From Chiloscyllium plagiosum (Eukaryota), in assembly GCF_004010195.1 (NCBI RefSeq), contig NC_057754.1, positions 10,860,588 through 10,909,615 on the forward strand: a DNA stretch of 49,028 nucleotides, in the 5' to 3' direction. A program made the translations under genes and the position numbers. The stretch's first letter is position 1; each line of letters starts with the position of its first letter. This document shows, piece after piece, positions 3,872 through 49,028 of the stretch. Below the pieces are notes generated by a model. That model did not search any database. It saw only the letters and a program-made list of their open reading frames with translations, and was not told where the DNA came from.

Positions 3872-4677
3872 GAAGTTACAAATCACACAACACCAGGTTA
3901 TAGTCCAACAGGTTTATTTAGAAGCACTCCTGTTTGGAGCACCACTCCTTCTTCACATGGTAGGAACATAAAACACAAAATTTATAGCAAAACATTAATG
4001 TGATGCAAATAAAGTGATATATTTAACAAACTTCAATTGCTGTTAAGTCTTCCATCTTTTAGAAGGGGTTACAGGTTTCTGTTTATTAATACGTAAATCC
4101 CAAAACTTCTTTTAAGTCACATTCTCAAGGTAAGTTAAGGTTTTACAAAACAAGGTGACATTTCAGCTCAGACAATACCTTAAAGGTGTGAGGTCAGAGT
4201 TTGTCTGTATCCCAATCGTGACTCAGACTGGGTCTACTTCCAAAGTGGAATTTACAAAATATTATATGAATTGACTGTCTGAAATGACTGCCCACAATTT
4301 GTGTACTTTTTGAGCAAAATAGAACAAATCTGTAAGTATAATTTTGAAAATACAAATTCACCACACAGACTTATATGTGTGTGCGCATGCAGGGGAGAGG
4401 GGGAAGAGGGGGAGAGAGAGTGTAGTGGCCGACATGAATCCAAGTTCTCAGTTGCAGCCATTCTCATGGGTACCGAACTTGGCTATCAGCCTCTGCTCAG
4501 CTACTTTCCATTGTTGTCTGTCCTGAAGTCTGTCTTGGAGGATGGTCACCTGAAGATCCGAGGCTGAATATCCCTGACTGCTGAAGTATACCCCAACTGG
4601 TAGGGAATGCCCCTGTCTGGTGATGGTTGTGTGGTGTCCATTCATCTGTTGTCACAGTGTCTGCTTAGTGTTGCCAA
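3872..4677 (-). mobile_element. Penelope-like element (second family): GIY-YIG C-terminus and pLTR
   Basis: ORF 4448-4645 HSLPVGVYFSSQGYSASDLQVTILQ...AEQRLIAKFGTHENGCN is a PLE endonuclease tail; pLTR homologous to 46359-46555 and 47280-47526. Confidence 0.8.
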
Positions 4678-5012
4678 GTGGGATAGAATTGAAAAGCGGG
4701 GAGATGATGTTCAAATTACTTTGAACTGTGGTTAGTTGCCATTGGCAGCACTGTCACCATTTATCATTTCCATTTTGAAAAAGGAAAGAGTCACTGGGGA
4801 CGGTGTCACACAGAAGCACATGAAGAACACCAAAGCTGAGAGCATTTAACTCTCAGGAAAGACCAGAAAGTTTTTCTTTTGAAAAAATGGTTCAAAGGTG
4901 ACCTGACGGATGTCTTCAAGGTGATGAACGGCTTTAAAATCCATTAGTGAATACAAGAGAAACCTCTTCAACTCAATGACAGGTGAGAATGTGGAACTCT
5001 CTCCCACATTGG

Positions 5013-6105: not shown

Positions 6106-6533
6106 ACTTGTGAATTCACTCATGTTTTCTCAGATTTGATGACTGTGGTAAGCGCTTCCCACAGTCAGGGCAGATGAATGGCTCTCCCCAGTATGAACTC
6201 ACTGGTGTTCATGTAGACCAAATAAATCTCTAAATTGCTTCCCACAGTTGGAGTACTTAAGTGGCCTCTCCCCAATGTGAACTCACTGATGCACCTGCAG
6301 ACTGGATAACAGTGATTATTTTTCCATAGTCCAAACAGGTAGATGGGCTCTCTCCAGTGTGAGCCCGCTGATGTTTTAACACAGTGAAATATTTACTGAA
6401 TTTTTTCCCACACTCAGAGCAGATGAACAGCCTCTCTCCAGCGGCAGCACGCTACTTGGGGTGAGCATCTCACTGCTCTTCCAGTTAAATTGATGTTTAA
6501 AACCTTTGATGCCGACAGAACAGACAAACATTT
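6106..6533 (-). pseudogene. C2H2 zinc-finger pseudogene (about 4 decayed fingers)
   Basis: Minus-strand translation MFVCSVG...[29 protein letters not shown]...HQ*VHIGERP...HQ*VHTGE...FICPDCGKRLPQSSNLRKHE*IHK, with frameshifts and in-frame TGA. Confidence 0.85.
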
Positions 6534-6854: not shown

Positions 6855-7082
6855 AGATTAGAGTGGTGCTGGAAAAGCACAGCAGGCCAGCAGCATCCGA
6901 GGAGCAGGAAAATCGACATTTCAGGCAAAAGTCCTTCATCACGAAAGCCCTTTCCTGAAGAAGGGCTTTTGCCTGAAACATCAATTTTGCTGCTCCTCGG
7001 ATGCTGCCTGACCTGCTGTGTTTTTCCAGCACCACTCTGTTTAAGACTCTGATTTCCGACATCTGGAGTTCTCACTTTCGCC
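6855..7082. mobile_element. Palindromic Penelope-pLTR-derived mini-insertion
   Basis: Inverted pLTR arms; TSD CTCTG(C/G)CCCATTCCT at 6840-6854 and 7083-7097; hammerhead-like motif at 6955-6982. Confidence 0.85.
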
Positions 7083-14950: not shown

Positions 14951-16102
14951 ATAACAGGATGAGCCAGTGAATTTTGTTGGAGTGGTAACGAAAAGCACAG
15001 TGGAGGCTGGAAAGCTGCACCAGAATATTCAACCTGATCGGAGGTTGGTTAAAGAGAAAGAGCCAAATTTTTTTAAACCATATACCTGCGAAGGTAAAGT
15101 TTACTCGTATAGGCCAGCAGCAGCAGGTAAAGAGGTTACAATATTAAGAGATACAAGATCCTCTCAATCTTTGATGTTGACAGATGATGGGATATGTACC
15201 TCTGAAGGACTATTGTCAGAAAAAGTGCTAGTAAGGGAATTCACGGTGAGACATGAAGCACTCAATTACAGAGGGTGAGGTTAACGTGTGCAGTGAAGAA
15301 TGGAGAAGTCGTGGTAGGAGTACTGGACAAACTCTCAGCTCCAGCTAACGATTTAACTGGTTCACAGGTAGGAGTGCTGCCCACTGTGGTTGAAAAGCCA
15401 GTGGAAACTCAGGCAACTGAAGTATGACAGAAAGCATATCCTGACTGTGTGGTAACGAAGTCACAAAGTCACTAGTTGAAACAGGAGAGATCAAAGAGTA
15501 CAGATAAGAAAGTTGACGTGGAACAAGCAGACACCCTGTTCGATCAAATGGTTGAGACAAACCAGGAGCAGGAGGAAGACAAAGCAGACATCTTTAGTTC
15601 AGAGAAATTAACTGAGTTGCAGGAGAAAGAAGGGAAACTACAGCAATTGTATCAAAAAGCATACACGGAAGGAGAATCTAGATATATCTCAGTGTGCTAC
15701 TATCTTAAAAATGATGTCTTAATGAGAAAATGGAGACCATCACGTCTTCACTCAGATGAGAAATGGGTAGACATTCATCAAGTTGTATTGCCAATGGGTT
15801 ATAAAAAGGAGGTGTTGCAGATAGCACACGGACTACCAGTAAGAGGTCATTGGAGGGTAAGAAAAACTCAAACTAAAATATGAAAACATTTTTACTGGCC
15901 TGGACTGCACAAGGATATAGTTGAATTTTGCCACACATCTCATACATGACAGGTAATTGGAAAACCACAGGCAGTAATAAAACCTGCACCTTTAATACCT
16001 ATTCCTGCATTTGGGGGACATTCTACAAAGTCTTAATTGATCGCATAGGACCCCTACCTAAAATAAAACAATAATGGATGTGTCCACTAGATTTCCAAAG
16101 GC

Positions 16103-16452
16103 CAGGGGTGGCATGGTGGCTCAGTGGTTAGCACTACTGCCTCACAGAGCCAGGGACCTAGGTTCGATTCCAGCCTTGGGTGACTGCCTGTGGGGAGTAT
16201 ACACATTCTCTCCGTGTCTGCGTGGGTTTCCTCCGGGTGTTCCGGTTTTCTCCCACAATCCAAAGATAAGCTGGTTAGGTGAATTGGCTATGCTAAATTG
16301 CCCATAGTGTTCAGGGATGTAGGTTAGATGCAATAATCAGGGGTAAACCTAGGATAACAGGGGATTGGGCCTGGGTGGGTTACACTTTGGAGGGTCGGTG
16401 TGGACTTGTTGGGCCGAAGGGCCTGTGTCTACACTGTAGAGATTCTATGACT
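16103..16452 (+). mobile_element. HE1-type SINE inside the integrase
   Basis: GGTGGCTCAGTGGTTAGCACT A box, GGTTCGATTCC B box, tail GATTCTATGA. Confidence 0.92.
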
Positions 16453-18425
16453 CTTCAAGAACCAAAGTAGGGATTCTATTCCATTACACAATATCACAGC
16501 TAAAAGGATTGTAGGGGAGGTACTCAACTTTTTCACGAGATATGGACTTTGCACAGAGATACAAAGAGATCAAGAGTCAATCTTTACGTCAAAATCATGA
16601 AAGGAAGTTATAGACACCTTAGTAATAAATCAATTCAAATCTACCGCATGCCATCCAGAATCACAGTGAGTACTCGAAAGGTGGCATCAGATATTAAAGA
16701 CCATGTTAAGGGCTTATAGTCAAGACTATCCAGATGATTGGGTTAAAGGACTTCAGTTTGTACTTACTGCTATCAGAGAAGCACCAAATGAATCAACCAA
16801 ATTCAGTCCATCAATCCAAATTAGTTTTTGGGCATGAAGCGAGAGGACCGTTAAAATTGATTAGGGAGAAATTGGTAAGTCATAATTCAGAGACCACACA
16901 GTTTTACTGTGTGTTAAACTTTAGGGAACAGTTAAATAAAGTGGGGGAATTGGCTATACAGCATTTAAAAGTATCACAGCATACACTGAAACAGGAAGCT
17001 GACAAGAAATCAAACACTCGCTTAGTTACTTCTAGTGGTAGGTGAACCTTTAAAATCAAGGTTTAGTAGACCTCACCAAGTCAAAAGAAGGTTGAGTGAG
17101 TTGAACTATTTGATAAGGACTCCAGACAGAAATAAATCTCACAGAATGTGTTGTGTGAATATGCTCAAAAAGGTACTTTGACAGGGAAGGAAAGTTAAAG
17201 GAGGTTGTGTTATTGGTTACAACACAGAGGGAAGAACCAAGTTCAGAGTATTCTGAATTTGACATTACTCAAAAGAAATTGGACAATGTGGAAGTTATCA
17301 AAAGTTGGGATAAATTATTGAGCTACCTTCCTGAGGAAAATCAAAATGACCTGAAAGTGTTATTACTATCACATGGCGAGATATGTGGAAATAACCTGGG
17401 AAGTACTAACTTAATTGTGCATGACATAGATATAGGACATGCCAATCTGAATAAGCTACATCATTTTGGGCTTAAACCCCTGAAATTTGCACAGGTTCAA
17501 AAGGAGATTGAACACATGCTCCAAGATGACAGATTTAAAGTCAGCTGCAGTGACTGAAACTCACCAATAATAATGGTGCCAAAACCAGATGGTACCCAAT
17601 GGCAATGTGTGGACTATCACAAAGTTAATGCAGTCACAGATACAGATTCGTATCTGATTCATGTTTGGAAGACTGTGTTGAAAAGGTGGGACAAGCAACT
17701 TGTATTACTGAGTTGGACTTACTCAACGATACTCGCAGGTACCTTTGTCTGAAAGAGCAAAGTCAATTTTGGTTTCGTAACGCCGAATGGACTCTGATCA
17801 GTTTAAAGCCATGCCATTTGATATGAAAAATGTGGCAGTTTCATTTCAAAGTCTAACCAATAAGGTCATTTCTAGTTTACCCAATTTTAAATATTGGTGA
17901 TTTTTAATCACACATGGAAGGAACATTTTTCAGAATTGTTCAATCGACTGCTGAAGAGTGACTTTGCCAAAGCCGAAGTTACCTTCCTGGGTCATGTTGT
18001 TGGACGTGGTTCACGGGATGCAAAAACAAAGGTAATTGGGAGTTTCCTATACCATCGACAAAAAGAGCAGGACTACGATTTCTTGGATTCAATTAATTTT
18101 ATCAAGTGGCTGCTTTGCTCACTGAATTACTGAAGATAGGTAAGATGCTTCAGTGGAGAGTGGTCTACGAAAAGGCATTTGACAGCCTGAAAACTGTTAA
18201 CCACTGCCACAATGTTAGCCCCACCTAATTACGTGAAGCTATTCAAGGTGGCTATTATGCGGCTGTCAGTGCTGTGCTCTTCCATGAGGATGACGTGAAG
18301 ATAGAAAGACCTATCGGGTATCTCTCCAGGAAATTGAACATTCATCAGCAGAAGTATTCAACAGTTGAGAAGGAGACTTTGAGCTTGGTGTTGGCATCAC
18401 AACATTTCAATGTTAATGTTACCAG

Positions 18426-19122
18426 AGAGACCTTGGAGTGCAAGTTCATAGCTCCTTGAAAGTGGAGTCGCAGGTAGATAGGATAGTGAAGAAAGTGTTT
18501 GGTATGCTTTCCTTTATTGGTCAGAGTACTGAGTACAGGAGTTGGAGGTCATGTTGCAGCTGTACAGGTCATTGGTTAGACCACTGTTGGAATATTGTGT
18601 ACAGTTCTGGTCTCCCTCCTATCGGAAAGATGTTGTGAAACTTGAAAGGGTTCAGAAAAGATTTACAAGGATGTTGCCAGGGTTGGAGGATTTGAGCTAT
18701 AGGGAGAGGTTGAATAGGCTGGGGCTGTTTTCTCTGGAGCTGAGGGGTGACTTAATAGAGGTTTATAAAATCATGAGGGGCATGGATTGGATAAATAGAC
18801 AAAGTCTCTTCTCTGGGGTGGTGGAGTCCAGAACGAGAGGTCATGCGTTTAGGGTGAGAGGGGAAAGATATGAAAGAGACCTAAGGGGCAACTTTTTCAC
18901 GCAGAGGGTGGTACGTGTATGGAATGAGCTGCCAGAGGGAATGATGGAGGCTAGTACAATTGCAACATTTAAAAGGCATCTGGATGGATATATGGACAGG
19001 AAGGGTTTGGATAGATATGGGCCCGGAGCTGGCAAGTGGGACTAGATTGGGTTGGCATATCTGGTCGGCATGGATGAGTTGGATCGAAGGGTCTGTTCCA
19101 TGCTGTACATCTCTATGACTAT
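18426..19122 (+). mobile_element. CR1 3' fragment inside RNaseH
   Basis: ORF 18542-19045 LLEYCVQFWSPSYRKDVVKLERVQKRFTRMLPG; ACCAG on both flanks (possible TSD). Confidence 0.92.
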
Positions 19123-19990: not shown

Positions 19991-20170
19991 CACAGAAGAA
20001 AACTGAATTTCAAGTAAATTAACTATTTGAAGACCCAGCCAACACGAAAATGCAACTTAACGAAGAGCTGGTGCAATTTCCTGCAACATCAGACAGAGAA
20101 AGAGAGAGAGAGAGATCCGACAGAGAGAGAGAGAGAGAGATCCGACACAGAGAGAGAGAGAGAGAGATCC

Positions 20171-22821
20171 GATATCACAGAGAGAGAGATATCACAGAGA
20201 GAGAGATATCACAGAGAGAGAGATATCACAGAGAGAGAGATATCACAGAGAGAGAGATATCACAGAGAGAGAGATATCACAGAGAGAGAGATATCACAGA
20301 GAGAGAGATATCACAGAGAGAGAGATATCACAGAGAGAGAGATATCACAGAGAGAGAGATATCACAGAGAGAGAGATATCACAGAGAGAGAGATATCACA
20401 GAGAGAGAGATATCACAGAGAGAGAGATATCACAGAGAGAGAGATATCACAGAGAGAGAGATATCACAGAGAGAGAGATATCACAGAGAGAGAGATATCA
20501 CAGAGAGAGAGATATCACAGAGAGAGAGATATCACAGAGAGAGAGATATCACAGAGAGAGAGATATCACAGAGAGAGAGATATCACAGAGAGAGAGATAT
20601 CACAGAGAGAGAGATATCACAGAGAGAGAGATATCACAGAGAGAGAGATATCACAGAGAGAGAGATATCACAGAGAGAGAGATATCACAGAGAGAGAGAT
20701 ATCACAGAGAGAGAGATATCACAGAGAGAGAGATATCACAGAGAGAGAGATATCACAGAGAGAGAGATATCACAGAGAGAGAGATATCACAGAGAGAGAG
20801 ATATCACAGAGAGAGAGATATCACAGAGAGAGAGATATCACAGAGAGAGAGATATCACAGAGAGAGAGATATCACAGAGAGAGAGATATCACAGAGAGAG
20901 AGATATCACAGAGAGAGAGATATCACAGAGAGAGAGATATCACAGAGAGAGAGATATCACAGAGAGAGAGATATCACAGAGAGAGAGATATCACAGAGAG
21001 AGAGATATCACAGAGAGAGAGATATCACAGAGAGAGAGATATCACAGAGAGAGAGATATCACAGAGAGAGAGATATCACAGAGAGAGAGATATCACAGAG
21101 AGAGAGATATCACAGAGAGAGAGATATCACAGAGAGAGAGATATCACAGAGAGAGAGATATCACAGAGAGAGAGATATCACAGAGAGAGAGATATCACAG
21201 AGAGAGAGATATCACAGAGAGAGAGATATCACAGAGAGAGAGATATCACAGAGAGAGAGATATCACAGAGAGAGAGATATCACAGAGAGAGAGATATCAC
21301 AGAGAGAGAGATATCACAGAGAGAGAGATATCACAGAGAGAGAGATATCACAGAGAGAGAGATATCACAGAGAGAGAGATATCACAGAGAGAGAGATATC
21401 ACAGAGAGAGAGATATCACAGAGAGAGAGATATCACAGAGAGAGAGATATCACAGAGAGAGAGATATCACAGAGAGAGAGATATCACAGAGAGAGAGATA
21501 TCACAGAGAGAGAGATATCACAGAGAGAGAGATATCACAGAGAGAGAGATATCACAGAGAGAGAGATATCACAGAGAGAGAGATATCACAGAGAGAGAGA
21601 TATCACAGAGAGAGAGATATCACAGAGAGAGAGATATCACAGAGAGAGAGATATCACAGAGAGAGAGATATCACAGAGAGAGAGATATCACAGAGAGAGA
21701 GATATCACAGAGAGAGAGATATCACAGAGAGAGAGATATCACAGAGAGAGAGATATCACAGAGAGAGAGATATCACAGAGAGAGAGATATCACAGAGAGA
21801 GAGATATCACAGAGAGAGAGATATCACAGAGAGAGAGATATCACAGAGAGAGAGATATCACAGAGAGAGAGATATCACAGAGAGAGAGATATCACAGAGA
21901 GAGAGATATCACAGAGAGAGAGATATCACAGAGAGAGAGATATCACAGAGAGAGAGATATCACAGAGAGAGAGATATCACAGAGAGAGAGATATCACAGA
22001 GAGAGAGATATCACAGAGAGAGAGATATCACAGAGAGAGAGATATCACAGAGAGAGAGATATCACAGAGAGAGAGATATCACAGAGAGAGAGATATCACA
22101 GAGAGAGAGATATCACAGAGAGAGAGATATCACAGAGAGAGAGATATCACAGAGAGAGAGATATCACAGAGAGAGAGATATCACAGAGAGAGAGATATCA
22201 CAGAGAGAGAGATATCACAGAGAGAGAGATATCACAGAGAGAGAGATATCACAGAGAGAGAGATATCACAGAGAGAGAGATATCACAGAGAGAGAGATAT
22301 CACAGAGAGAGAGATATCACAGAGAGAGAGATATCACAGAGAGAGAGATATCACAGAGAGAGAGATATCACAGAGAGAGAGATATCACAGAGAGAGAGAT
22401 ATCACAGAGAGAGAGATATCACAGAGAGAGAGATATCACAGAGAGAGAGATATCACAGAGAGAGAGATATCACAGAGAGAGAGATATCACAGAGAGAGAG
22501 ATATCACAGAGAGAGAGATATCACAGAGAGAGAGATATCACAGAGAGAGAGATATCACAGAGAGAGAGATATCACAGAGAGAGAGATATCACAGAGAGAG
22601 AGATATCACAGAGAGAGAGATATCACAGAGAGAGAGATATCACAGAGAGAGAGATATCACAGAGAGAGAGATATCACAGAGAGAGAGATATCACAGAGAG
22701 AGAGATATCACAGAGAGAGAGATATCACAGAGAGAGAGATATCACAGAGAGAGAGATATCACAGAGAGAGAGATATCACAGAGAGAGAGATATCACAGAG
22801 AGAGAGATATCACAGAGAGAG
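20171..22821 (+). repeat. Tandem array of the 17-bp unit GATATCACAGAGAGAGA, 156 copies in exact register
   Basis: GATATC runs from 20171 to 22806 = 155 x 17 bp; degenerate units at 20092-20170 and 22822-22970. Confidence 0.97.
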
Positions 22822-23002
22822 CGCGCGAGATAGCGATCAGAGAGCGCAAGATCAGAGAGAGCAATGGAGAGAGAGATCAGAGTGTTCAGAGAGAGCGCGA
22901 GAGAAATCAGAGAGAGAGATCAGAGAGAGAGATCAGTGATCGAGAGAGAGAGATCACAGAGAGAGCGAGAGAAAAAAATCAGCATGGAGCTGTTTCTTTG
23001 AG

Positions 23003-26392: not shown

Positions 26393-27130
<738 letters not shown>

Positions 27131-29247
27131 GAACTGTCAAACAATTCACTCTTAGATTCACAGGATCCCAAAGAATCAAGCAGCTCTGCAAAACAAAAAT
27201 TATAAAAGTCATCATCACTTTCAGTCCAGGATAGAGAGTCAGAAAGCACAACTCTAGTTTCAATCAAATATTCCTGCCTCTCTTGTGCCCAAAAATCTCT
27301 CATATTCCAAGCATTGTCTCCATCCTCACTCTGCTTTACCTAATACGCATACTATAAATTCTCCAAAAGGTGATGATTCATGCTGAGTGACAGACTTACG
27401 TTTCCTGTAATTAAATAGGTATTTGGTGAACTGAGTAAAGTATAGAGCTGTATGAGATATATGAGGAATGTGAAAAATAACAATGACCTGCACTACTGCC
27501 TTTTTTTATTCTTATTCACTCAAAGAATGTAGACATCATTGGCTCAGCCAACATTTATTGCCTGTCTCTATTTGCTCCTGACAAGGTTCAAACAAAAACA
27601 ATCAGCGATTTGAAATCAAAATCTGATGGTCACTTAATGGATGCGAATTTGCAGGGCGACAAGCATGCAGAGCAGCAAATGGAACAGACTGGATTGCTTT
27701 GCAGTGTTGGTGTGGAGTCAAGATATGAATGTGTCCTGTATCATAATGACTTTCTGATTGTATATGTATTATGTAGCTACAATATTGTATTACAAGACTA
27801 GAAACAATGATAATGACACTTTGTTTATAGATCTATAAGCAATATGTTGAATATCTATTAAATAACAACACAAGAAATATCTATCATTTATTCCCCTTAA
27901 ATATCAGCTGTTACCTGAGTAAATCATTCTTTTAATTGTGAATACTAAGAAGGAGGCATTATTTTACTCAGACAAGAATATGTGTCAAACTGAGAGAGTA
28001 AAAGATGTCAGCGTCCATAAGACAGAAATAGGAACCAACCTCTCCTAAATCTGCAAACTCCTGGATTCACTTCCTTTCCCTCTAGTTGCTACTACCAGTG
28101 ACCAGTTTCTCACTTCCCTCCTAAGATGGTCTAGAGGAGGTCATTTCATCAGTCTGAATTTTTCCATGCACACAGTGCTATCTGGAGCAGTTAATTATTT
28201 CTCCTCACAGATTTAAAGTTCAATGATACTCCTGTCCAAATGGATCGAGTGACTCGGTCAGATCTTCAGATCAAGCTTGATTTGAGAATTATGTCTGAAA
28301 ATTCTATCCTGCTGATCCTACAGTGTACTTAAGTCATCACCTGAAGTAGAGGTGATACATTATTTCAAAATTTTATTGAATGGGGCACTTGAAGAAAATA
28401 AATTTGCAAGGCTTTAGAGAGTGGATAGAACTTAACTGCCTCTTAAACCCTGACTATCTCTGATTGAAATCCTATATTTAAGAACATTGAGAAAGAGGCC
28501 ACCATATTCGGCAGGCAAATAAACGTATAAAGATAAGAGCAAATACTGACAATAACTTTCAGAGAGAGATATACCCGACTCAAACTTTCCAACATCTGCT
28601 AACTCACTGGATTCACTTCCTCTGCCTTGAATCGCTTGAAGTGAACAATTTCATCCATCTTACTCCCTCCCAGAATGTTACACAGAAGAGGCAATTTCAC
28701 TCTGACTCTCAATGGACAACGTCCGCATTATGATGTTTGCAATCAGCATGGGGCTTGCCTGAGGCAGTCAATAGGCAGGTGTGAGGATTCCTTGAGGTAA
28801 AAACAATGACTGCAGATGCTGGAAACCAGATTCTGGATCAGTGGTGCTGGAAGAGCACAGCAATTCAGGCAGCATCCGAGAGAGAGGAGGAAAACTTCTT
28901 CAAGGCAGGCATCCTTGCAAGAGGATTCGCAGTAGGGTTAAAATCAACGAGGTAAAAACAATGACTCCCACCCTACCTCTTGCAAAAATGCCATCCCGTA
29001 TTCCCAATTCCTCCGCGTATCTGCTCCCAGGAGGAGCAGTTCCACCATAGAACACACCAGATGGCCTCCTTCTTTAGAGACCGCAATTTCCCTTCCCACG
29101 TGGTTAAAGATGCCCTCCAACGCATCTCGTCCACATCCCGCACCTCCGCCCTCAGACCCAACCCCTCCAACCGCAACAAGGACAGAACGCCCCTGGTGCT
29201 CACCTTCCACCCTACCAACCTTCGCATAAACCAAATCATCCGCCGAC

Positions 29248-29491
29248 NNNNNNNNNNNNNNNNNNNNNNNNNNNNNNNNNNNNNNNNNNNNNNNNNNNNN
29301 NNNNNNNNNNNNNNNNNNNNNNNNNNNNNNNNNNNNNNNNNNNNNNNNNNNNNNNNNNNNNNNNNNNNNNNNNNNNNNNNNNNNNNNNNNNNNNNNNNNN
29401 NNNNNNNNNNNNNNNNNNNNNNNNNNNNNNNNNNNNNNNNNNNNNNNNNNNNNNNNNNNNNNNNNNNNNNNNNNNNNNNNNNNNNNNNNNN
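29248..29491. other. Assembly gap (244 N)
   Basis: Run of n. Confidence 1.
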
Positions 29492-29899
29492 NCGCCCCGT
29501 GGCTCAACATTTCAACTCCCCCTCCCACTCTGCCGAGGGTATGGAGGTGCTGGGCCTCCTCCACCGCCGCTCCCTCACCACCAGATGCCTGGAGGAAGAA
29601 CGCCTCATCTTCTGCCTCGGAACACTTCAACCCCAGGGCATCAGTGTGGATTTCAACAGTTTCCTCATTTCCCGTTCCCCCACCTCATCCTAGCTTCTAA
29701 CCTCCAGAAACTCGATCCCCTGACCTGTCCGGACTTGTCCGACCTGCCCAGCTCGTTTTCCACCTATCCACTCCACCCTCTCTTCCCTGACCTATCACCT
29801 TCATCTCCTTCCCCACTGACCTATTGTACTCTATGCCACTCTATCCCCACCCCCGCCCTCCTCTAGCTTATCTCTCCACGCTGCAGTCTCTCTGCCTTT

Positions 29900-29935
29900 A
29901 TTCCTGATGAAGGGCTTTTGCCCGAAACGTCGATT
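29900..29935 (+). ncRNA. Minimal type-I hammerhead ribozyme-like motif in the pLTR
   Basis: AUUC-CUGAUGA-A-GGGC-UUUU-GCCC-GAAAC-GUC-GAUU. Confidence 0.7.
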
Positions 29936-30227
29936 TTGCCTGTCCTCGGATGCTGCCTGAATTGCTGTGCTCTTCCAGCACCACTGATCCAGAAGTGAGG
30001 ATTCCTTGCAGAGTCTCACTTAAGTCCAGAGCTTTGAATGTAACAGGAATGATTCGATACCGAATGATGTGCTAAATTATCAATCAAACTCCATCTCCTG
30101 ACCTCATTCCATCGTTGGCCAACCCATGTGCTAGGCAATTTACTGTCCTGCGTTGTAATTCAAGAGTTGTCAAATTGTGAGCAAATTAATTGTAACAAAG
30201 CTCAGGAAGAATAAAAATTACTAGAAC

Positions 30228-32671: not shown

Positions 32672-32882
32672 CTGGAGAAAGTGAGGACTGCAGATGCTGG
32701 AGATCAGAGCTGAAAATGTGTTGCTGGAAAAGCGCAGCAGGTCAGGCAGCATCCAGCGAACAGGAGAATCGACGTTTCGGGCATAAGCCATTCCTGAAGA
32801 AGGGCTTATGCCCGAAACGTCGATTCTCCTGTTCCCTGGATGCTGCCTGACCTGCTGCGCTTTTCCAGCAACACATTTTCAG
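32672..32882. mobile_element. Palindromic Penelope-pLTR-derived mini-insertion with an intact hammerhead-like motif (32794-32821)
   Basis: Near-perfect inverted arms; 12-bp TSD CAACCTTCTTTA at 32660-32671 and 32883-32894. Confidence 0.9.
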
Positions 32883-33853
32883 CAACCTTCTTTAGTCTCT
32901 AACAACAGCCAAGGCATCCTTCCTTTGAAAAGGAGAACAAAACTGCACACACTACTCCATTTGTAGTCTTACCAAGGCCTGAACAGAAAGACACCCCTGC
33001 TCCTGTACTCCAGTCCTCTCAATATGAAGGTCCATATATCATTTGCATTCTTTTTAAAAGATCTAAACCCAGAAAATATCCCAAAACAATTCCTTCCCTA
33101 TGAAATTCATTAGGAAAAAGCTTGCCACTCCTGCCTGCTTACTAATAGAGAGGTTCACACTGAAACACAGAGCAAAATAGGGTCATAGACTCTGATATAG
33201 AATTGTTGATCACAATGTCCCCATTGTATCCATGCTGGTCATGAAGCATGTATTTACACTTATCCCATTTTCTGGCACTCAACATGTAAACTATATTGTT
33301 AAGGCTTTTATGATCATCTAAACATTTCTTCAATGGTTCCTGCATCTGTTACCATTTCAGGTGTTACCAGATCTGCTGAGTATCTCTAGAATTATCATTT
33401 CAGATTTTCACTATTTTGCTTCTGCAATTGTTCTTAGTCTTTCAGAGGGATCGAAGAAAACAGGAACAGGATTGATATGCAGATCTATAAAATGCCTCTC
33501 CTCCTCCCCGCCACTGGCTCTCCCACCTTTGCACAGGCACTGACTGGTCTCAGACCCTGAAGGAGATATATAAACCAGTCCAGTTTTAATGATGTGTGGG
33601 CTCCACAAAGGACCAGATTAATTTCTCTCAGACTCAACCTGTTTTCTTCTGGTTTTCCCTCTCTCCTTACTTCAGTTTTCTGTTTGAAAGGTTGATTTGC
33701 AGAGGAAATCAAATTCAGATCTGATATTCAGTCTGTTTATTATAACCTATTTATCTCAGGATTTTGAACATTGAGGGGGGGAAAAGTACCATTTACTCCG
33801 GAGAAAAACACAAATAATCAACATGTGGGAGAGTCTGTGAAGATTTTTCGGAA

Positions 33854-34903
33854 ATGTCCAAACACCAGCGCAGTCACACTGTGGAGAGACTGTGGAAATG
33901 TGGGGATTGTGGGAAGGGATTTTTTTACCCATGCCAGCTGGAAATTCACCAACGCAGTCACACTGGGGAGAAGCCTTTCACCTGCTCTGATTGTGGGAAA
34001 AGATTCACTCGGTCATCTGACATGTTCAAACATCAGCGAGTTCACACAGGGGAAAGACCATTCACCTGCTCTGATTGTGGAAAAGGATTCAGTCAGTCAT
34101 CCGAACTGCTGAGACATCAACGAGTTCACACTGGGGAGAAACCATTCACCTGTTCTGAATGTGGAAAAGGATTCAGTCAGTCATCCAGTCTACTAGAACA
34201 CAAGCGATTTCACACTGGGGAGAGACCATTCACCTGTTCTGAATGTGGGAAAGGATTCACTCACTCATCTAACCTACTGATACACCAGCGAGTTCACACC
34301 GGGGAGAAACCGTTTATCTGTTCTGAGTGTGGGAAGGGATTCACTCGGTCATCAAGTCTGCTGATACATCAGCGAGTTCACACTGGGCAGAGCCCATTCA
34401 TATGTTCCGAATGTGGGAAAGTATTCACTTGCTCATCAAAACTGTTGACACACCAACGAATTCACACTGGAGAGAAACCATTTACCTGTTCTGACTGTGG
34501 GAAGGGATTTACTAGATCGTCCAGCCTGCTGATACATCAGCGAGTTCATACTGGAGAGCGACCATTCACTTGTTCTGAGTGTGGGAAAGCATTCACTCAG
34601 ACAACTCACCTGCTGATTCACCAGCGCGTTCACACTGGAGAAAAACCATTCATCTGCTGTGACTGTGGGAAGGGATTTGCTCGGTCATCTAACCTGCTGA
34701 TACATCAGCGAGTTCACTCTGGGGAGAGACCGTTCACCTGCTCTGATTGTGGGAAGCGATTCACTCATTCATCTAACCTGCTGATACACCAGCGAGTTCA
34801 TACTGGGGAGAAACCATTCACCTGTTCTGAGTGTGGAAAGAGATTCACTCGATCATCGAACCTGTTAACACACCAGCAAATTCACAAAGAACCACTGGCT
34901 TGA
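33854..34903 (+). CDS. Tandem C2H2 zinc-finger protein, 349 aa, 12 fingers, no recognisable effector domain
   Basis: Uninterrupted ORF with 12 CxxC-x12-HxxxH fingers and TGE(K/R)P linkers; acceptor TCTCAG|G at 33759/33760; ATTAAA at 34983. Confidence 0.92.
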
Positions 34904-35051
34904 AAGATTTTGCTCTGACTCACACCGAAGAACGAACTCTGGTCTTTAGGACATTTGTACTGATGTTATTAATCCTTGCTCAATTAAAGATGCTGAAAGT
35001 ACAGATAAATGTTCATAACAATTAGTGTAATGTAGGCTATGTGTCGGAAAA

Positions 35052-35255
35052 TGTGTTGTTGGAAAAACATAGCAGGTCAGGCATCATCCGAGGAGCAGGA
35101 GAATCGACGTTTCAGGCCAGAGCCCTTCATCAGGAATGATGCATGGCCCGAAATATCGATTCTCCTGCTCCTCAGATGCTGCTTGACTGCTGTGCTTTTC
35201 CAGCAACACATTCTCGACTCTGATCTCCAGCATCTGCAGACCTCGTTTTCTCCTG
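35052..35255. mobile_element. Palindromic Penelope-pLTR-derived mini-insertion
   Basis: Inverted arms; TSD TGTGTCGGAAAA at 35040-35051 and 35256-35267; hammerhead-like motif on the - strand at 35106-35133. Confidence 0.88.
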
Positions 35256-35869
35256 TGTGTCGGAAAAGACCACCATGCTGCTGTGTGTCAACGTGTGCAG
35301 ACTGGGTAAAGTGTATGAAAAAGGATTTCCTGGTTCATCAGGACTGGGTAATCACCTATGAGTTCCCAATTAACTGTAGGGATTGGTTCTTTGATGCTAC
35401 TGTTACCTATATCCTAACCAAGTTTTCTGTGCCTGCTTCTGATGATGTTTGTAAATATATGTCTGGTTACCTGTGTGCTAGAAAAGTGATATAAATCAGC
35501 TTTTTGTAAAAACTTGTGCATCGAGTCTTTATCTTATCTGTAAAGCAGACTCATTTATTTTGACAGGATCTCCATCTCTTCCATTGTCACCTGGAGTTTG
35601 AGTCACTCAGAGTGACTCAATCAGTCTGCTTTACATGAACGCATGCTGGAAATTAGAAACAAAAACAGAAATTGCTGGAAAAGCTCAATGGGTCAGGCAG
35701 CATCTGTGGTGAGAAATCAGAATTAACATATCAAGTCCAATGACCCCTTTCTGTGAGGGACCTGCTAAGCTTTCCTAGCAATTTCTGTTTTTGCTTCCTA
35801 TGAGAAGTTGGGAGATGGCACATCCAGAGTGAGGGAGAGCCCATAATGCTCCACCGCGCCTAAGGCCTA

Positions 35870-40140: not shown

Positions 40141-40776
40141 AGAAGCATTCGGAATAAGGTGGCTGAACTTGCAGCATAGGTTGGTACTTAAGATTTCGAT
40201 GTTGTGGCTATTTCGGAGACATGGGTAGAGCAGGGACTTGAATGGTTGTTGCAGGTTCTGGGATTTGAATATTTCAGTAAGAACAGGGAAGATGGTAAAA
40301 GAGGTGGCGGTGTGGCATTGTTAGTCAAGGACAGTATTACAGTTGCAGAAAGGACTTTAGAGAACTCGTCTACTGAGGTAGTATGGGCTGAGGTTAGAAA
40401 CAGGAAAGGACAGGTCACCCTGCTCGGAGTTTTCTATAGGCCTCCAAATAGTTCCAGAGATGTAAAGGAAAGGATAGCAAAGATGATTCCTGATAGGAGC
40501 GAGAGTGATAAGGTAGATGGAAAGGGGGATTTTAACTTTTCAAATGTTAACTGCGAATACTATAGTTCAAGTACTTTAGATGGTCCGTATTTGTCCAATG
40601 TGTGCAGGAGGGTTTCCTGACACAGTATGTAGATAGGCCAACAAGGGGCGAGGCCACATTCGATTTGGAATGGGGTAATGAACCCAGCCAGGTGTTAGAT
40701 GTAGAGGTAGGTGAGCACTTTGGTGATAGTGACCACAATTCTGTTATGTTTACTTTAGTTATGGAAAGGGATCGAT

Positions 40777-41125
40777 ATAGAACATAGAACATAGAACAAT
40801 ACAGCACAGAACAGGCCCTTCGGCCCACGATGTTGTGCCGAACTTCTAACCTAGATTAAGTACCCATCCATGTACCTATCCAAATGCCGCTTAAAGGTCG
40901 CCAATGATTCCGACTCTACCACTCCCACGGGCAGCGCATTCCATGCCCCCACCACTCTCTGGGTAAAGAACCCACCCCTGGCATCTCCCCTATACCTTCC
41001 ACCCTTCACCTTAAATTTATGTCCCCTTGTAACACTCTGTTGTACCCGGGGAAAAAGTTTCTGACTGTCTACTCTATCTATTCCTCTGATCATCTTATAA
41101 ACATCTTATGATCATCTTCCTCTCC
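40777..41125 (-). mobile_element. CR1 3' fragment of a different subfamily, nested
   Basis: (ATAGAAC)n tail; ORF 40851-41093 FFTQRVVGAWNALP. Confidence 0.88.
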
Positions 41126-41748: not shown

Positions 41749-42817
41749 TAGAGTCATAGAGATGTACAGCACGGAAAAAGACACTTCGGTCTAACCCATC
41801 CATGCCGACCAGATATCCCAATCCAATCTACTCCTACATGCCAGTACCTGGTCCATATCCATCCAAACCCTTCCTATTCATCCATGCCTTTTAAATGTTG
41901 CAAATATACTGGCCTCCACCACTTCCTCTGGCAGCCCATTCCACACATGCCCCACCCTCTGAGTGAAAAGGTTGCCTCTTAGGTCTCTTTTATATCTTTC
42001 CCCTCTCACCCTAAACGTATAGTTATGGACTCCCCCATCTCAGGGAAAAGACCTTGTCTATTTATCTTATCCATGCCCCTCATGATTTTATAAACCTCTA
42101 TAAGGTCACCCCTCAACCTCCAACGCTTCAGGGATAACAGCCCTAACCTATTCAACCTCTCCCTATAGTTCAAATCCTCCAACTCTGGAAACATCCTTGG
42201 AAATCTTTTCTGGACACTTTCAAGTTTCACAACATCGTTCCGATAGGAAGGAGACCAGAATTGCATGTGATATTCCAAAAGTGGCCTAACCAATGTCCTG
42301 CACAGCTGCAACATGACCTCCCAACTCCTGTACTCAATACTCTGACCAATTAAGGAGTGCATACCAAACGCTTTCTTAACTATCCACCTACCTGTGACTC
42401 TACTTTCAAGGAGCTAGGAACCTGCACTGCAAGGTCTCTTTGTTCAGCAACACTCCCTAGGACCTTACCATTAAGTGTATAAGTCCTGCTAAGGTTTGCT
42501 TTCCCAAAATGCAGCACCTCGCATTTATCTAAATTAAACTGCATCTGCCATTCCTCAGCCTATTGGCTCATCTGATCAAGATCCCGTTGAATCTGAGGTA
42601 ACCTTCTTCGCTATCCATTACACCTCCAATTTTGGTGTCATCTGCAAACATACGAACTGTACCTCTTAAGCTCACATCCAAATCATTTACATAAATGATG
42701 AAAAGTAATGGACCCAGCATGATCCTCCAATCTGAAAAACAACTCTCCACGATCATCCCCTGTCTTCTACCTTTGAGCTATTCTGTATCCAAATGGCTAG
42801 TTCTCCCTGTATTCCTT
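41749..42817 (-). mobile_element. CR1 3' fragment, nested
   Basis: LGPLLFIIYVNDLD, MFADDTKIGG and LLEYHMQFWSP. Confidence 0.9.
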
Positions 42818-43580: not shown

Positions 43581-44373
43581 AAAGTTGAAGGTGATTTAGA
43601 GATTTGGATCAGAAATTGGCTAGCTGAAAGAAGACAGAGGGTGGTGGTTTTTGGGAAATGTTCATCCTGGAGTTTAGTTATTAGTAGTGTACCGTAAGGA
43701 TCTGTTTTGGGTCCACTGCTGTTTGTCATTTTTATAAATGACCTGGATGAGGGCATAAAAGGATGGATTGCTAAGGTCGGTGGAGTTGTGGATAGTGCTG
43801 AAGGATGTTGTAGGTTACAGAGGGACATAGATAAGCTGCAGAGCTGGGCAGAGAGATGGCAAATGTAGTTTAATGTCGAAAAGTGTCAGGTTTTGGAAGG
43901 AGTAACAGGAACACAGAGTACTGGGCTAATGGTAAGATTCTTGGTAGTGTAGATGAGCAGAGAGATCTCGGTGTCCATGTATATAGATCCCTCAAAATTG
44001 CCACCCAGATTGATAAGGTTGTTAAGAAGGCATGCGGTGTGTTAACTTTTATTGGTCGAGGGATTGAGTTTTGGAACCATGAGGTCATGCTGCAGCTGTA
44101 CAAAACTCTGGTGCAGCCACATTTGGAGTATTGCGTATAGATCTAGTCATACTGCATTATAGGAAGGATGTGGAAGCTTTGGAAAGGGCTCAGAGGAGAT
44201 TTGCTAGGATGTTGCTTGGTATGGAAGGAAGGTCTTACGAGGAAAGGCTGAGGGACTTAAGGCTGTTTTTGTTTGACAGAAGAAGGTTGAGAGGTGATTT
44301 AATTGACACATATAAAATAATCAGAGGGTTAGATAGGGTGGACAGTGAGAGCCTTTTTCCTCGGATAGGGATG

Positions 44374-44509
44374 AAAATGTGTTGCTGGAAAAGCGCAACA
44401 GGTCAGGCAGCATCCAAGGAACAGGAGAATCGACGTTTCGGGCATGCTGCGCTTTTCCAGCAACACATTTTCAGCTCTGATCTCCAGCATCTGTAGCCCT
44501 CACTTTCTC
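44374..44509. mobile_element. Short palindromic Penelope-pLTR-derived insertion
   Basis: 16-bp TSD TCCTCGGATAGGGATG at 44358-44373 and 44510-44525. Confidence 0.88.
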
Positions 44510-45791: not shown

Positions 45792-47680
45792 AGGTGTTGT
45801 GTGTGAATGCACACAGTATACACCACAAGGTAAATGAGCTTGTTGTAGTGGGTATCACAGAGACATGGCTGCAAGGGTATCAGAACAGCTAAATATCCAA
45901 GGATATCCACCCTATTGAAAAGACAGGCAGGTGGGCAGAGGGGGTGACATTGTCTTGTTAGTAAAAAAAAAGAAATTAAATCAACAGCAATAAACAAAGT
46001 AGGGTCAGATATTGTTTCTGTTTTGGTCAAGTTGAGGAACTGCAAAGGTAAGAAAGCCATAATGGGAGTTATTAACAGGCCTCCAAACAGTAGTCAGGAT
46101 TTGGGGCATAAGATACACCAAGAGATAGAAGAGGTGTGTAAGAAAAGCAAGGTTACAGTGATCATTAGAGATTTCAAAATGCAGGTGAACTGGCAAAACC
46201 AGGTTGGTAGTGGATCACAAGAAAAGGAATTTGTGGAATGTCTATGAGATGGCTTTTTGGAGCAGCATGTGCTGGAGTCCACGAGGATAATACTGGATTT
46301 AGTGTTGTGCAATGAGGCAGACTTGATAAGGGAGCTTAAGGTGAAGGAATCCTTTGGAGTTAAAAATCACACAACACCAGGTTTATGTGGAAACACTAGC
46401 TTTAGGAGTGCTGCTCCTTCATCAGGTGGTTGTGGAGTATAAGATCATAAGACACAGAGTTGATATCAAAGGTTTACAGTGTGATGCAACTGAAATGATG
46501 TATTGAAAAAGACCTGGATTGTTTGTTATGTCTCCCATCTTTTAGAATGATCAATTTTAATTCGAATGACACAATAGAGTCATAGAGTTGTATAGCACGG
46601 AAACAGACCCTTTGGTCCAACTCGTTCATGTCGACCAGATATCCCAACCTAATTTAGTCCCATTTGCCAGCATTTGGCCCATACACCTCTAAATCCTTCC
46701 TATTCATATACCCATCCAGAAGCCTTTTAAATGTTGCAATTGTACCAGCCTCCACCACTTCCTCTGGCTGCTCATTCCATATACTCACCACCACTGCGTG
46801 AAAATGTTGCCCCTTAAGTCCCTTTTATATCTTTCCCCCTCACCCTGAACCTATGCCTCTAGTTCTGGACTCCCTCATCCCAGGGAAAAGACTTTGTCTA
46901 TTTCCCCTATCCATACCCCTCATGATTTTATAAACCTTTTCAGGTCACGCCCTCAGCCTCCGATGCTTTAGGGGAAATAGCCCCAGTCTATTCAGCCTCT
47001 CCTGATAGCTCAAATCCACCAACCGTGGCAACAACCTTGTAAATGATTTCTGAACCCTTTCAAGTTTCACAACATCCTTCTGATAGGAAGGAGACCAGAA
47101 TTGCACGTAATATTCTAAAAGTGGCCTAACCAACATTCTGTGAAGCCGCAACATAACCTCCCAACACCTTTAGTCAATACTCTGACCGATAAAGGAAAGC
47201 ATACTAAATGCCTTATTCACTATCCATCCAATATGCCTGTGACTGTACTTTCAAGGAGCTATGAGCCTGCACTCCAAGTGGTCATTCTAAAAGATGAGAA
47301 ACTTAAACAATCCAGGTCTTTATCAATATATCATTTCAATTGCATCACACTACAAACTTTTTCTATAAACTCTATGCCTTACAATATTATACTCCATAAC
47401 CACCTGATGAAGGTGCAGAGCTCTGAAAGCTCGTGTTTCCAAATGAACCTGTTGGACTATAACCTGGTGTTGTGTAATTTTTAACTTTGTACACCCCAGT
47501 CCAACAACGTCACCTCCAAATCATGGATCCTTTGGAAACAGTGCCCATAATATGATAGAATTTACTTTGCAGTTTGTGAGAGGGAGAACATGGACTCACA
47601 TTTAATGGAAATACAGTTGAACAAAGGCAACTACAGATGTATGATGGGGAAGCTGACCAGAACTGACTGTGAGTTAATTA
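45792..47680 (+). mobile_element. Old CR1 endonuclease fragment split by a Penelope insertion
   Basis: GVINRPPNS, IIRDF, FLEQHV and ILDLVLCNEADLIRELKVKE, resuming after 47536. Confidence 0.78.
46359..47526. mobile_element. Inverted pair of family-2 Penelope pLTRs with a CR1 fragment (46575-47278, -) between them
   Basis: 46359-46555 is inverted relative to 47280-47485; TSD ATCCTTTGGA at 46349-46358 and 47527-47536; hammerhead-like motifs at 46397-46425 (-) and 47404-47432 (+). Confidence 0.85.
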
Positions 47681-48004: not shown

Positions 48005-49028
48005 TCATAGAGTCATAGAGATGTACAGCATGGAAACAGACCCTTCGGTCCAACCCTCCATGCCCACCAGATATCCCAACCCAATTTCGTTCCACCTGCC
48101 AGCACCCGGCCCATATCCCTCCAAACCCTTCCTATTCATATACCCATCTAAATGCGTCTTAAATGTTGCAATTGTACCAGCTCCACCACATCCTCTGGCA
48201 GCTCATTCCATACACGTACCACCCTCTGCGTGAAAAAGTTGCCCCTTAGGTCTCTTTCCCCTCTCTAAACTTATGCCCTCTAGTTCTGGACTCCCTGATC
48301 CTAGGAAAAAGACTTTGCCTATTTATCCTATCCATGCCCCTCATAATTTTGTAAACCTCCGGAAGGTCACCCCTCAGCCTTCAACACTCCAGGGAAAACA
48401 GCCCCAGCCTTTTCAGCCTCTCCCTGTAGCTCAGATCCTCCAACCCTGGCAACATCCTTGTAAATCTTTTCTGAACCCTTTCAAATTTCACAACATCTTT
48501 CCAATAAGAAGGAGACGACAATTGCACGCAATATTCCAACCGTGGCCTAACTAATGTCCTGTACAGCCGCAACATGACCTCCCAACTCCTGTACTGAATG
48601 CACTGACCAAGAAATGAAAGCATACCAAACGCCTTCTTCACTATCTTATCTACCTGCGACTCCACTTTCAAGGGGCTATGAACCTGCAGTCCAAGGGCTC
48701 TTTGTTCAGCAACACTCCCTAGAACCTTACCATTAAGTGGCTAAGTCCTGCTAAGATTTGCTTTCTCAAAATGCAGCACCCTCACATTTATCTGAATTAA
48801 ACTCCACCTGCCACTTCTCAGCCCATTGGCCCATCTGGTCCAGATCCTGTTGTAATCTGAGGTAACCCTCTTCACTGTCGACTACACTTCCAATATTGGT
48901 GTCATCTGCAAACTTACTAACTGTACCTCTTATGCTCGCATCCAAATCATTTATGTAAATGACAAAAAGTAGAGGGCCCAGCACCGATCCTTGTGGCACT
49001 CCACTGGCCACAGGCCTCCAGTCTGAAA
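48005..49028 (-). mobile_element. CR1 RT and 3' UTR, running off the window end
   Basis: SGVPQGSVLGPLLFVIYINDLD..KFADDT; LEYCVQ. Confidence 0.94.

What the first reader, a model, noticed from the sequence alone, without database searches (positions are those of the whole stretch)
46359..47526. Second Penelope family shows compensatory changes around the same hammerhead core
Seen: CAC-CUGAUGA-A-GGUGCAGAGCUCU-GAAAG-CUC-GUG at 47401-47435, and CAC-CUGAUGA-A-GGAGCAGCACUCC-UAAAG-CUA-GUG on the - strand at 46394-46428. Relative to family 1, stem I changes from UC/GA to CAC/GUG, stem II from GGGC/GCCC to GGAG/CUCC, and the palindrome from ACGU to AGCU, while the core and the extra A are kept. A third decayed family (25814, 37538) has CUGA.GAAGGGUC..GAYY. 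Otherwise unrelated pLTRs that conserve both pairing and core give in-window covariation evidence for a functional RNA structure. These two copies each carry decay mutations.
Basis: partly seen in the sequence, partly recalled or inferred. Interest (0 to 1): 0.72.

Follow-up and report, generated by a model that had tools for sequence, protein, structure and literature searches.

The report
Decayed Penelope insertion with two hammerheads
The two ribozyme-like motifs are real, but they are the mirror-image ends of one old, decaying insertion of a Penelope-type jumping gene, they follow a tiny self-cutting RNA design already described in many animals, and both copies here are predicted to be inactive.

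Summary
Both motifs are present exactly as written and exceed chance. They are not independent copies: 46359-47524 is one head-to-head Penelope-like (PLE) insertion with a 10-bp target duplication, a 38-39-nt tail on the right arm only, and a 700-bp LINE 3' end between the arms. A third copy follows a GIY-YIG-like endonuclease remnant. Against family 1, four pairs change on both sides, but two or three lineages give no statistical covariation, and such family-level changes, the extra A and the AGCU palindrome were published in 2014. Between the arms the motif diverges like its flanks (6/35 vs 22/157, p=0.6). The left arm lacks G12; the right is predicted to misfold. Public runs mostly read letters that restore the pairs, and 861 of 2467 RNA reads, nearly all from other copies, carry poly(A) about 28 nt after the predicted cut. 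The scan noted these hammerheads and that poly(A) signal before on other DNA of this genome. Verdict: new member of a known kind.

The parts
46349..46358 (+). Left target-site duplication ATCCTTTGGA, in a LINE endonuclease-region remnant
   Evidence: longest exact match across the two junctions, 10 bp; left flank maps to 40366-40723 and right flank to 40718-40804 of one LINE remnant, so the flanks are colinear and overlap by about the duplication
46359..46556 (-). Left arm: inverted family-2 pseudo-LTR without the tail; 15-nt deletion just 3' of the hammerhead
   Evidence: 14.6% different from the right arm over 192 aligned bases
46394..46428 (-). Minimal type I hammerhead motif, left arm; G12 is U (46404), fifth pair of stem II broken; predicted cut after 46397
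   Evidence: G12 as general base from PMC6155905 passage
46557..46573 (.). Short spacer; together with the last bases of the arm it holds GAATGAC (46564-46570), an inverted copy of the first bases of the right arm (GTCATTC, 47281-47287)
   Evidence: Sequence shown
46574..47278 (-). 5'-truncated LINE 3' end (CR1-like; label recalled from its short tandem tail and RT C-terminus, no library hit) lying at the apex between the arms, tail abutting the left arm
   Evidence: 81-83% identical to copies at 18432-19120, 41749-42433, 48007-48703; tail comparison
47279..47524 (+). Right arm: family-2 pseudo-LTR with tail
   Evidence: family 3' end at 47523-47525 from loose ends of contigs in three runs
47401..47435 (+). 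Minimal type I hammerhead motif, right arm; core intact, G10.1-U11.1 wobble and U-U mismatch in stem II, C at position 17; predicted cut after 47432
   Evidence: predicted alternative hairpins
47442..47447 (+). Poly(A) hexamer position: AATGAA in this copy, AATAAA in 92-96% of laid depth and in the 3873 copy
   Evidence: (47445 G>A)
47459..47462 (+). Family-level poly(A) addition site in RNA reads from other copies
   Evidence: A-run loose ends in 382 + 479 of 2467 laid reads of run X21; depth on the main orientation falls from 1517 to 672
47487..47524 (+). 38-39-nt PLE 'tail', present on the right arm only
   Evidence: tail described in PMC8557442, PMC3846280, PMC11167929
47527..47536 (+). 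Right target-site duplication ATCCTTTGGA (may extend to 47525 with a one-base indel)
3873..4678 (-). Third family-2 copy: decayed pseudo-LTR (3873-4064) preceded by the C-terminal end of a GIY-YIG-like endonuclease (4430-4678); its hammerhead keeps stem II (5 of 5 pairs, one wobble) but has lost C3, G12 and the palindrome

Best explanation
The stretch 46359-47524 is one head-to-head insertion of two end pieces (pseudo-LTRs) of a Penelope-like retrotransposon family, each with a minimal hammerhead motif that likely cut RNA as a dimer in the active parent element and is predicted to be inactive here. Shown: two arms in opposite orientation, a 10-bp target duplication, a tail on one arm, colinear flanks, a LINE 3' end in the middle, a family link to a GIY-YIG-like endonuclease end, and equal divergence of motif and flanks. 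Inferred from the literature: the element's endonuclease nicked both strands, reverse transcription started at the two ends of the tail, and the two short cDNAs were joined head to head. In the parent RNA two same-strand motifs would pair through AGCU (4 bp stem III) and swap stem I strands, then cut after CUA. The double-sided differences from family 1 record long separate descent of two PLE lineages under selection on the parent elements, not selection at this locus. Here the arms lie on opposite strands, so one transcript carries only one sense motif and would more likely anneal its arms into a long duplex.
For: Architecture. Non-randomness. Family letters in public runs (21,195, 46,971 and 46,368 contigs from three organisms and 2467 RNA reads): A at 47414 in 92-98% (restores the A-U pair), A at 47432 in 60-68%, C at 47424 in 43-55% (restores G10.1-C11.1), no row for a core position among the 40 rows shown. 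PLE identity: 67-aa remnant 4451-4651(-) hits three longer proteins at 69-72% (3 of 13 candidates) that carry a CX4CX2C linker and VY..C...YVGET motif, a Neptune/Nematis trait; ESM features place that part with GIY-YIG clusters at 0.95-0.97 (family on 18-34% of members). Neutral decay: 6 of 35 motif positions vs 22 of 157 others differ between arms, Fisher p=0.60. Predicted inactivity: left arm G12U; right-arm core trapped in a CACCU/AGGUG hairpin (monomer -11.8 kcal/mol; double-hammerhead fold -1.9 vs best dimer -31.1; same hairpins in 91-nt context). Arm-arm duplex -232 kcal/mol. Precedent: PMC4209133, PMC8557442, PMC3846280, PMC11167929.
Against: No cleavage was measured. No HMM library confirmed the endonuclease: Pfam 0 of 4 proteins, NCBIfam one sub-threshold hit, PDB 0; no RT is attached to family 2 in the window. 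C at 47424 reaches only about half the depth and 54 rows were not shown, so the family-wide share of G12 is not known; there are no read data for the left arm. The right arm keeps every core nucleotide, so weak trans cleavage is not excluded. The test of equal divergence has low power (35 positions). The 10-bp duplication was read from one locus without an empty site. PMC11167929 found hammerhead cleavage dispensable for insertion in vitro and no RNA-seq ends at the cut, so the role of cleavage in the parent element is itself unsettled.
Confidence: 0.88

Rival explanations
1. The central LINE piece was not inserted later but was co-inserted: the PLE reverse transcriptase finished copying one pseudo-LTR, switched template to a LINE RNA 3' end (or LINE-bearing DNA), and the product was joined to the second arm. 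This changes how the middle arose, not what the hammerheads are.
For: The LINE sits within about 17 nt of the apex of a 430-bp element, tail abutting the left arm in the same sense. It is 12.6% (86 of 683) from the majority of three other window copies, more than the ~7% per arm implied by 14.6% between arms, so it does not look younger. Capture between pLTRs is published for rotifer PLEs and was noted by the scan elsewhere in this genome (e1-9835470, unchecked).
Against: Any LINE inserted at the apex of an inverted pair is sense to one arm, so orientation does not discriminate. The 7-bp inverted repeat on both sides of the LINE looks like an ordinary palindromic junction that was split later. 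Subfamily differences can inflate the LINE's divergence; only four copies were compared. Nine other LINE 3' ends of this kind match in the window, so nested insertion is common.
Confidence: 0.45
2. The right arm has been kept as a working host element (a regulated self-cleaving or poly(A) module in a host transcript).
For: All core nucleotides are intact; a near-identical piece occurs in organism B (132 letters, 3 differences, across a stretch where 14 listed sites differ from that run's majority, record 11), so the copy is likely old and shared.
Against: Motif diverges as fast as the rest of the arm; two stem II pairs weakened, misfolding predicted; its hexamer is mutated to AATGAA; only 2 of 2467 RNA reads are 99% or more alike.
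Confidence: 0.04
3. The motifs are chance look-alikes or a non-PLE repeat such as a MITE with terminal inverted repeats.
For: Inverted ends plus a target duplication resemble a DNA transposon; Rfam gave no hammerhead hit even at E<=5.
Against: 0 hits in 100 simulations; tail on one arm only; a third copy is attached to an endonuclease end; the motif fits the published PLE consensus. Rfam also missed the three perfect family-1 motifs, so its blank is uninformative.
Confidence: 0.02

Closest known systems
Minimal hammerheads (min-HHR) in pLTRs of metazoan Penelope-like elements (Cervera and De la Pena 2014, PMC4209133; read parts 1-3 of 4 of the text and part 2 of 3 of the supplementary PDF)
   Same: Type I topology, CUGANGA + one extra nucleotide, G10.1-C11.1, GAAA, palindromic 15.2-16.2 with no loop 3, short stem I, several families per genome with compensatory changes, opposite-strand pairs. 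Fig. S3 lists Chrysemys picta with the AGCU palindrome and Marsupenaeus japonicus with CAC/GUG stem I and a CUA site.
   Different: No shark is named in the main text parts read or in the 2 searched supplementary files ('shark' 0, 'Callorhinchus' 0; one supplementary file could not be searched). This exact combination of stems is not in the part of Fig. S3 read. A used poly(A) site just 3' of the cut is not described in the parts read.
Inverted pLTR insertions with a 30-40-bp tail and short TSD (Arkhipova et al. 2013, PMC3846280, passages; Craig et al. 2021, PMC8557442, passages)
   Same: Head-to-head pLTRs, tail on one end only, 8-10-bp TSD, palindrome at the inverted junction, capture of unrelated DNA between pLTRs.
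   Different: No ORF between the arms here; a LINE 3' end occupies the apex.
Poseidon element PAc of Anolis (Frangieh et al. 2024, PMC11167929; parts 1-2 of 4 read)
   Same: HHR in the pLTR; two RT start sites bracketing the tail and cleavage of both strands would explain the two arm ends seen here.
   Different: Different clade (homologues of family 2 carry the CX2-5CxxC linker that Penelope/Poseidon lack); no biochemistry for family 2.
Neptune/Nematis clades of EN+ PLEs (PMC8557442, passages)
   Same: CX4CX2C linker before a C-terminal GIY-YIG-like domain in the closest full homologues P0001-P0003.
   Different: No RT tree was built, so Neptune versus Nematis is not decided.
Non-LTR retrozymes (bioRxiv 10.64898/2026.07.22.740005, passages)
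   Same: HHR-bearing non-coding PLE derivatives, found in one chondrichthyan.
   Different: Retrozymes are direct tandem repeats; this is an inverted pair.

Membership tests
PLE minimal hammerhead (type I min-HHR) | Core CUGANGA ... GAAA ... UH | tested here: met
   Intact in the right arm; left arm has G12U; 3873 copy decayed. No core position among the 40 variant rows shown, but 54 rows were hidden.
PLE minimal hammerhead (type I min-HHR) | [quoted passage not shown] | tested here: met
   A in all three family-2 copies
PLE minimal hammerhead (type I min-HHR) | Helix II with G10.1-C11.1 closing pair | tested here: met
   G-C in left arm and 3873 copy, G-U in right arm; C in 43-55% of depth at this CpG position
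PLE minimal hammerhead (type I min-HHR) | Self-complementary 15.1-16.1 tetramer without loop 3 | tested here: met
   AGCU in both arms
PLE minimal hammerhead (type I min-HHR) | Self-cleavage as a dimer | not testable with these tools
   Energy model only; the poly(A)-primed RNA run cannot capture cleavage products and listed no pile-up of ends
EN+ Penelope-like element | Direct or inverted pLTRs with a 30-40-bp tail at one end and a short TSD | tested here: met
EN+ Penelope-like element | C-terminal GIY-YIG endonuclease upstream of the pLTR | tested here: met
   For the family, via the 3873 copy. Motif- and embedding-based; Pfam, NCBIfam and PDB scans gave no supporting hit.
EN+ Penelope-like element | Telomerase-related RT domain in the same ORF | not tested
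   No family-2 RT in the window; homologues are 204-322-aa fragments; no whole genome held
Neptune/Nematis clades | CX2-5CxxC linker before GIY-YIG | tested here: met
   Present in P0001, P0002 and P0003, which are 69-72% identical to the window remnant; the remnant itself does not reach the linker
Neptune/Nematis clades | RT phylogeny | not tested
   No RT sequence
Non-LTR retrozyme | Direct tandem units each with one HHR | tested here: not met
   Arms are inverted; three dispersed copies in the window

The most novel reading that the evidence does not exclude
Family 2 has a retrovirus-like R-U5 layout: its mRNA starts near 47279, ends by polyadenylation at about 47460, and so carries the same ~180-nt stretch, with one hammerhead, at both ends. 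The two hammerheads of one mRNA could then pair in cis, and cutting would strip the poly(A) signal and tail. Reverse transcription starting in the tail, which lies beyond the poly(A) site and so exists only at the 5' end, would give a short strong-stop cDNA that either jumps to the 3' repeat to copy the full element, or is inserted as such, as the two arms here, at times after jumping onto a foreign RNA such as the LINE 3' end.
Probability: 0.3. Interest if true: 0.6.

Novelty: new member of a known kind. Interest (0 to 1): 0.17.

Why it matters
As given, little: it adds a shark family to a class of retroelement ribozymes described in 2014, and the two copies are fossils of one insertion. The useful residue is the family-level poly(A) site 10 nt (signal) and about 28 nt (addition site) after the predicted cut and upstream of the tail. 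If it belongs to the element's own mRNA, it fixes the 3' end of a PLE transcript, implies that full-length copies need a strand transfer or read-through, and gives the hammerhead a testable role (removing the poly(A) tail). How PLEs replicate and why they keep weak ribozymes is stated as open in PMC8557442 and PMC11167929.

Tried and rejected
Rfam at E<=5 over the whole window: 9 matches, all below gathering score, none a hammerhead; the mir-680/mir-3127 hits are the family-1 palindrome at 32747-32845. The repeat finder was swamped by the 17-bp array and useful only for inverted arms. The loose scan's shuffle control crashed and was replaced. MAFFT of 10 motifs put families out of register by one base, so no pair count was run on it; pairs were tabulated by anchor instead (the 3873 row there was off by one and corrected; the 35749 row is out of register and unused). 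R-scape is not available, and with two or three lineages would have no power. Pfam did not confirm the endonuclease remnant, its homologues, or the left flank as an APE domain; the flank's identity rests on alignment to the 40192-40804 remnant, which has a Pfam Exo_endo_phos hit. No RNA holder of this exact stretch was listed, which is no evidence on expression. No pile-up of read ends at the predicted cut is uninformative in a poly(A)-primed library. Left-arm variants in public runs remain unexamined. Lunse et al. 2017 (PMC5785218) is not held, so whether it lists shark variants is unchecked; it is cited only through PMC6765202. Paper searches: hammerhead+Penelope+shark gave 4 papers, none on shark PLEs; Penelope+pLTR+polyadenylation gave 2, neither opened for that term; 'polyadenyl' occurs 0 times in PMC3846280, PMC2377424 and the 2026 preprint. 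Most subscription papers and Repbase/Dfam are not searchable here, so absence from print is not established.

Full report
Observation. Both motifs are in the window exactly as written, at 47401-47435 (+) and 46394-46428 (-). A minimal-hammerhead descriptor finds five sites at one mismatch or fewer (29904, 32794, 35133, 47404, 46425) and none in any of 100 order-3 Markov simulations of the window without its 17-bp array; at two mismatches it finds seven against a mean of 0.09. The descriptor was written after seeing the motifs, but follows the published consensus. Rfam returned no hammerhead match at E<=5, not even for the three perfect family-1 motifs, so that blank carries no weight.

The differences between families. 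Anchored on the core, family 1 has stem I C-G, U-A; stem II G-C, G-C, G-C, C-G; palindrome ACGU. Family 2 has stem I C-G, A-U, C-G; stem II G-C, G-C, A-U, G-C, C-G; palindrome AGCU. Four pairs change on both sides (one in stem I, two in stem II, one in the palindrome). Outside the motif families 1 and 2 share nothing detectable; their best local match is the motif itself (71% over 38 nt, E 0.007), and homologues of the family-2 endonuclease are only 33-36% identical to the family-1 remnants at 8359-8520 and 29496-29657. The third family is weaker: the quoted pattern is a composite, neither 25814 nor 37538 keeps GAAA or the palindrome, each keeps four of five stem II pairs, and the family is related to family 1 downstream of the motif (72% over 75 nt, E 1e-8). 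Two clean lineages cannot give statistical covariation; what they show is that each family is self-consistent around a shared core.

One insertion, not two copies. The arms 46359-46556 (-) and 47279-47524 (+) are head to head and 14.6% different over 192 bases. ATCCTTTGGA stands at 46349-46358 and 47527-47536. The left flank aligns to 40366-40723 and the right flank to 40718-40804 of another LINE remnant, whose upstream part has a Pfam Exo_endo_phos hit, so the flanks are the two halves of one interrupted target. The left arm stops at the equivalent of 47485-47486, as does the third copy (47487), while the right arm runs on for 38-39 nt; contigs of three runs break off at 47523-47525. Inverted pLTRs with a 30-40-bp tail at one end and an 8-10-bp duplication are the described form of PLE insertions (PMC8557442 and PMC3846280, passages), and the two ends match the two reverse-transcription start sites that bracket the tail in the anole element (PMC11167929, parts 1-2). 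Between the arms lies a 705-bp LINE 3' end (46574-47278, minus strand), 81-83% like three other window copies. The CR1-like label is recalled. Whether it came later or was co-inserted by template switching is open: it sits at the apex and does not look younger than the arms (12.6% from the majority of three other copies), but a split 7-bp inverted repeat flanks it and such LINE ends are dense here.

Is family 2 a PLE? A third copy at 3873-4064 (-) (about 26% from each arm) is preceded by a reading-frame remnant at 4430-4678. Its 67 stop-free residues hit three longer proteins at 69-72% identity (3 of 13 candidates; one named by its source as from Chiloscyllium punctatum, which points to a shark). 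These carry a CX4CX2C linker, a VY..C...YVGET motif and the later H, E and N-type residues, the layout given for Neptune and Nematis endonucleases. ESM features place that part with GIY-YIG clusters at 0.95-0.97, the family being on 18-34% of members. Against this, Pfam, NCBIfam and PDB scans gave no supporting hit, and no RT was examined.

What the family looks like. Laid on the right arm at 80% likeness, three runs of contigs from three organisms gave 21,195, 46,971 and 46,368 records and one single-cell RNA run 2467 reads. Where the right arm breaks the structure, most depth reads the letter of the left arm: A at 47414 (92-98%), A at 47432 (60-68%, with U in 17-25%), C at 47424 (43-55%; this is the C of the CpG formed with G12, and reads like this copy are favoured). 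The loop position 47419 is C or U. No core position is among the 40 rows shown; 54 rows were hidden, so the share of copies that keep G12 is not known, and some loose-end consensus lines show A there. There are no such data for the left arm.

State of these two motifs. Since insertion the arms differ at 6 of 35 motif positions and 22 of 157 other positions (Fisher p=0.60): no sign of constraint, with low power. The left arm has U for G12, the general base (PMC6155905 passage). The right arm keeps the core, but U at 47414 creates a CACCU/AGGUG hairpin over it: the double-hammerhead fold scores -1.9 kcal/mol against -31.1 for the best dimer, while left-arm and family-1 double hammerheads score -10.3 and -11.7 against -18.1 and -19.3 (in none is the active fold the minimum, as expected for these weak ribozymes). 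A transcript through the locus would carry one sense motif and one antisense, and the arms could pair at about -232 kcal/mol. One contig piece from organism B matches 132 letters of the right arm with three differences, across 14 listed sites where that run's majority differs, which suggests that the insertion predates the split of those species.

RNA. Of 2467 reads, 1921 are under 90% alike and 2 are 99% or more alike, so they come from other copies. 382 and 479 reads leave the stretch at 47459 and 47462 into an A-run on the + strand; the first group begins with C, so both probably mark one site after 47460 in two sequence variants. Depth in the main orientation drops from 1517 to 672 there while the other orientation does not drop. 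At 47445, 92-96% of depth reads A, giving AATAAA at 47442-47447, ten bases after the predicted cut; the 3873 copy keeps it, the right arm has AATGAA and the left arm CATAAA followed by a 15-nt deletion. This is one run of one sample, about 2 in 100 of it read; whether the RNAs are element mRNAs, host transcripts ending in a pLTR, or primed on genomic A-runs beside truncated copies is not resolved. I saw this before reading the scan's notes; two of them (e1-9317248, e1-9147289) report the same signal on other DNA of this genome. They are unchecked notes and likely rest on the same runs, so they are not independent support.

Comparison with what is known. [quoted passage not shown] Their Fig. 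S3 has the AGCU palindrome in the painted turtle and a CAC/GUG stem with a CUA site in a shrimp. Sharks are not named in what I searched. In the anole element the ribozyme cut only with protein present and was not needed for insertion in vitro. The finding is thus a new member of a known kind, and the scan has reported shark PLE hammerhead families many times (1126 notes fit the words in this genome).

Verdict. Observation confirmed; interpretation partly supported; novelty low. The most novel reading left open is the R-U5 layout, built from my poly(A) result and the strong-stop reading taken from earlier notes (e1-9947963, e1-8159683, e1-8160032), which I tested only to the extent that both arms begin within a few bases of the same family position while the ORF-linked copy extends further upstream. 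Probability about 0.3.

Noticed in passing
window 47442-47462 (family level, run X21): AATAAA ten bases after the predicted cut and a used poly(A) site at about 47460, upstream of the tail; 861 of 2467 laid RNA reads, from other copies.
   Followed up: partly
window 46557-46573 and 47279-47287: GAATGAC and GTCATTC form a 7-bp inverted repeat on the two sides of the LINE piece; the left arm also has a short partial duplication of its first bases. Both arms begin on an initiator-like TCATTC (consensus recalled).
   Followed up: partly
window 47521-47526: The tail ends at ATCATG; the ATG could be the start codon of the family-2 ORF, as pLTR plus tail cover the first codons in rotifer PLEs. Not tested.
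   Followed up: no
window 46376-46383: 15-nt deletion in the left arm between short direct repeats (ATAAACC / ATAACC), removing the poly(A) addition site.
   Followed up: no
window 32709-32883, 35047-35256, 6863-7082, 44372-44509: Family-1 PLE ends also occur as inverted pairs; the 32709-32883 pair is 96% self-complementary and gives false microRNA hits in Rfam.
   Followed up: partly
window 8329-8700 and 28965-29984: Family-1 PLE endonuclease ends followed by pLTRs; the second is interrupted by the 245-N gap and has a perfect hammerhead at 29904.
   Followed up: partly
window 20001-23000: Near-perfect tandem array of a 17-bp unit, about 170 copies, open in all three + frames.
   Followed up: no
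window 33818-34903 (+), 6100-6450 (-), 26700-26903: An intact-looking C2H2 zinc-finger array of 12 fingers (Pfam) and decayed zinc-finger remnants elsewhere.
   Followed up: partly
window 14600-17560 (+): Broken reading frames that resemble a Gypsy-type LTR retrotransposon gag-pol (resemblance recalled, not tested).
   Followed up: no
window 4400-4430 (-): A short (CT)/(CA) microsatellite-like run lies between the family-2 endonuclease end and its 3' untranslated region.
   Followed up: no
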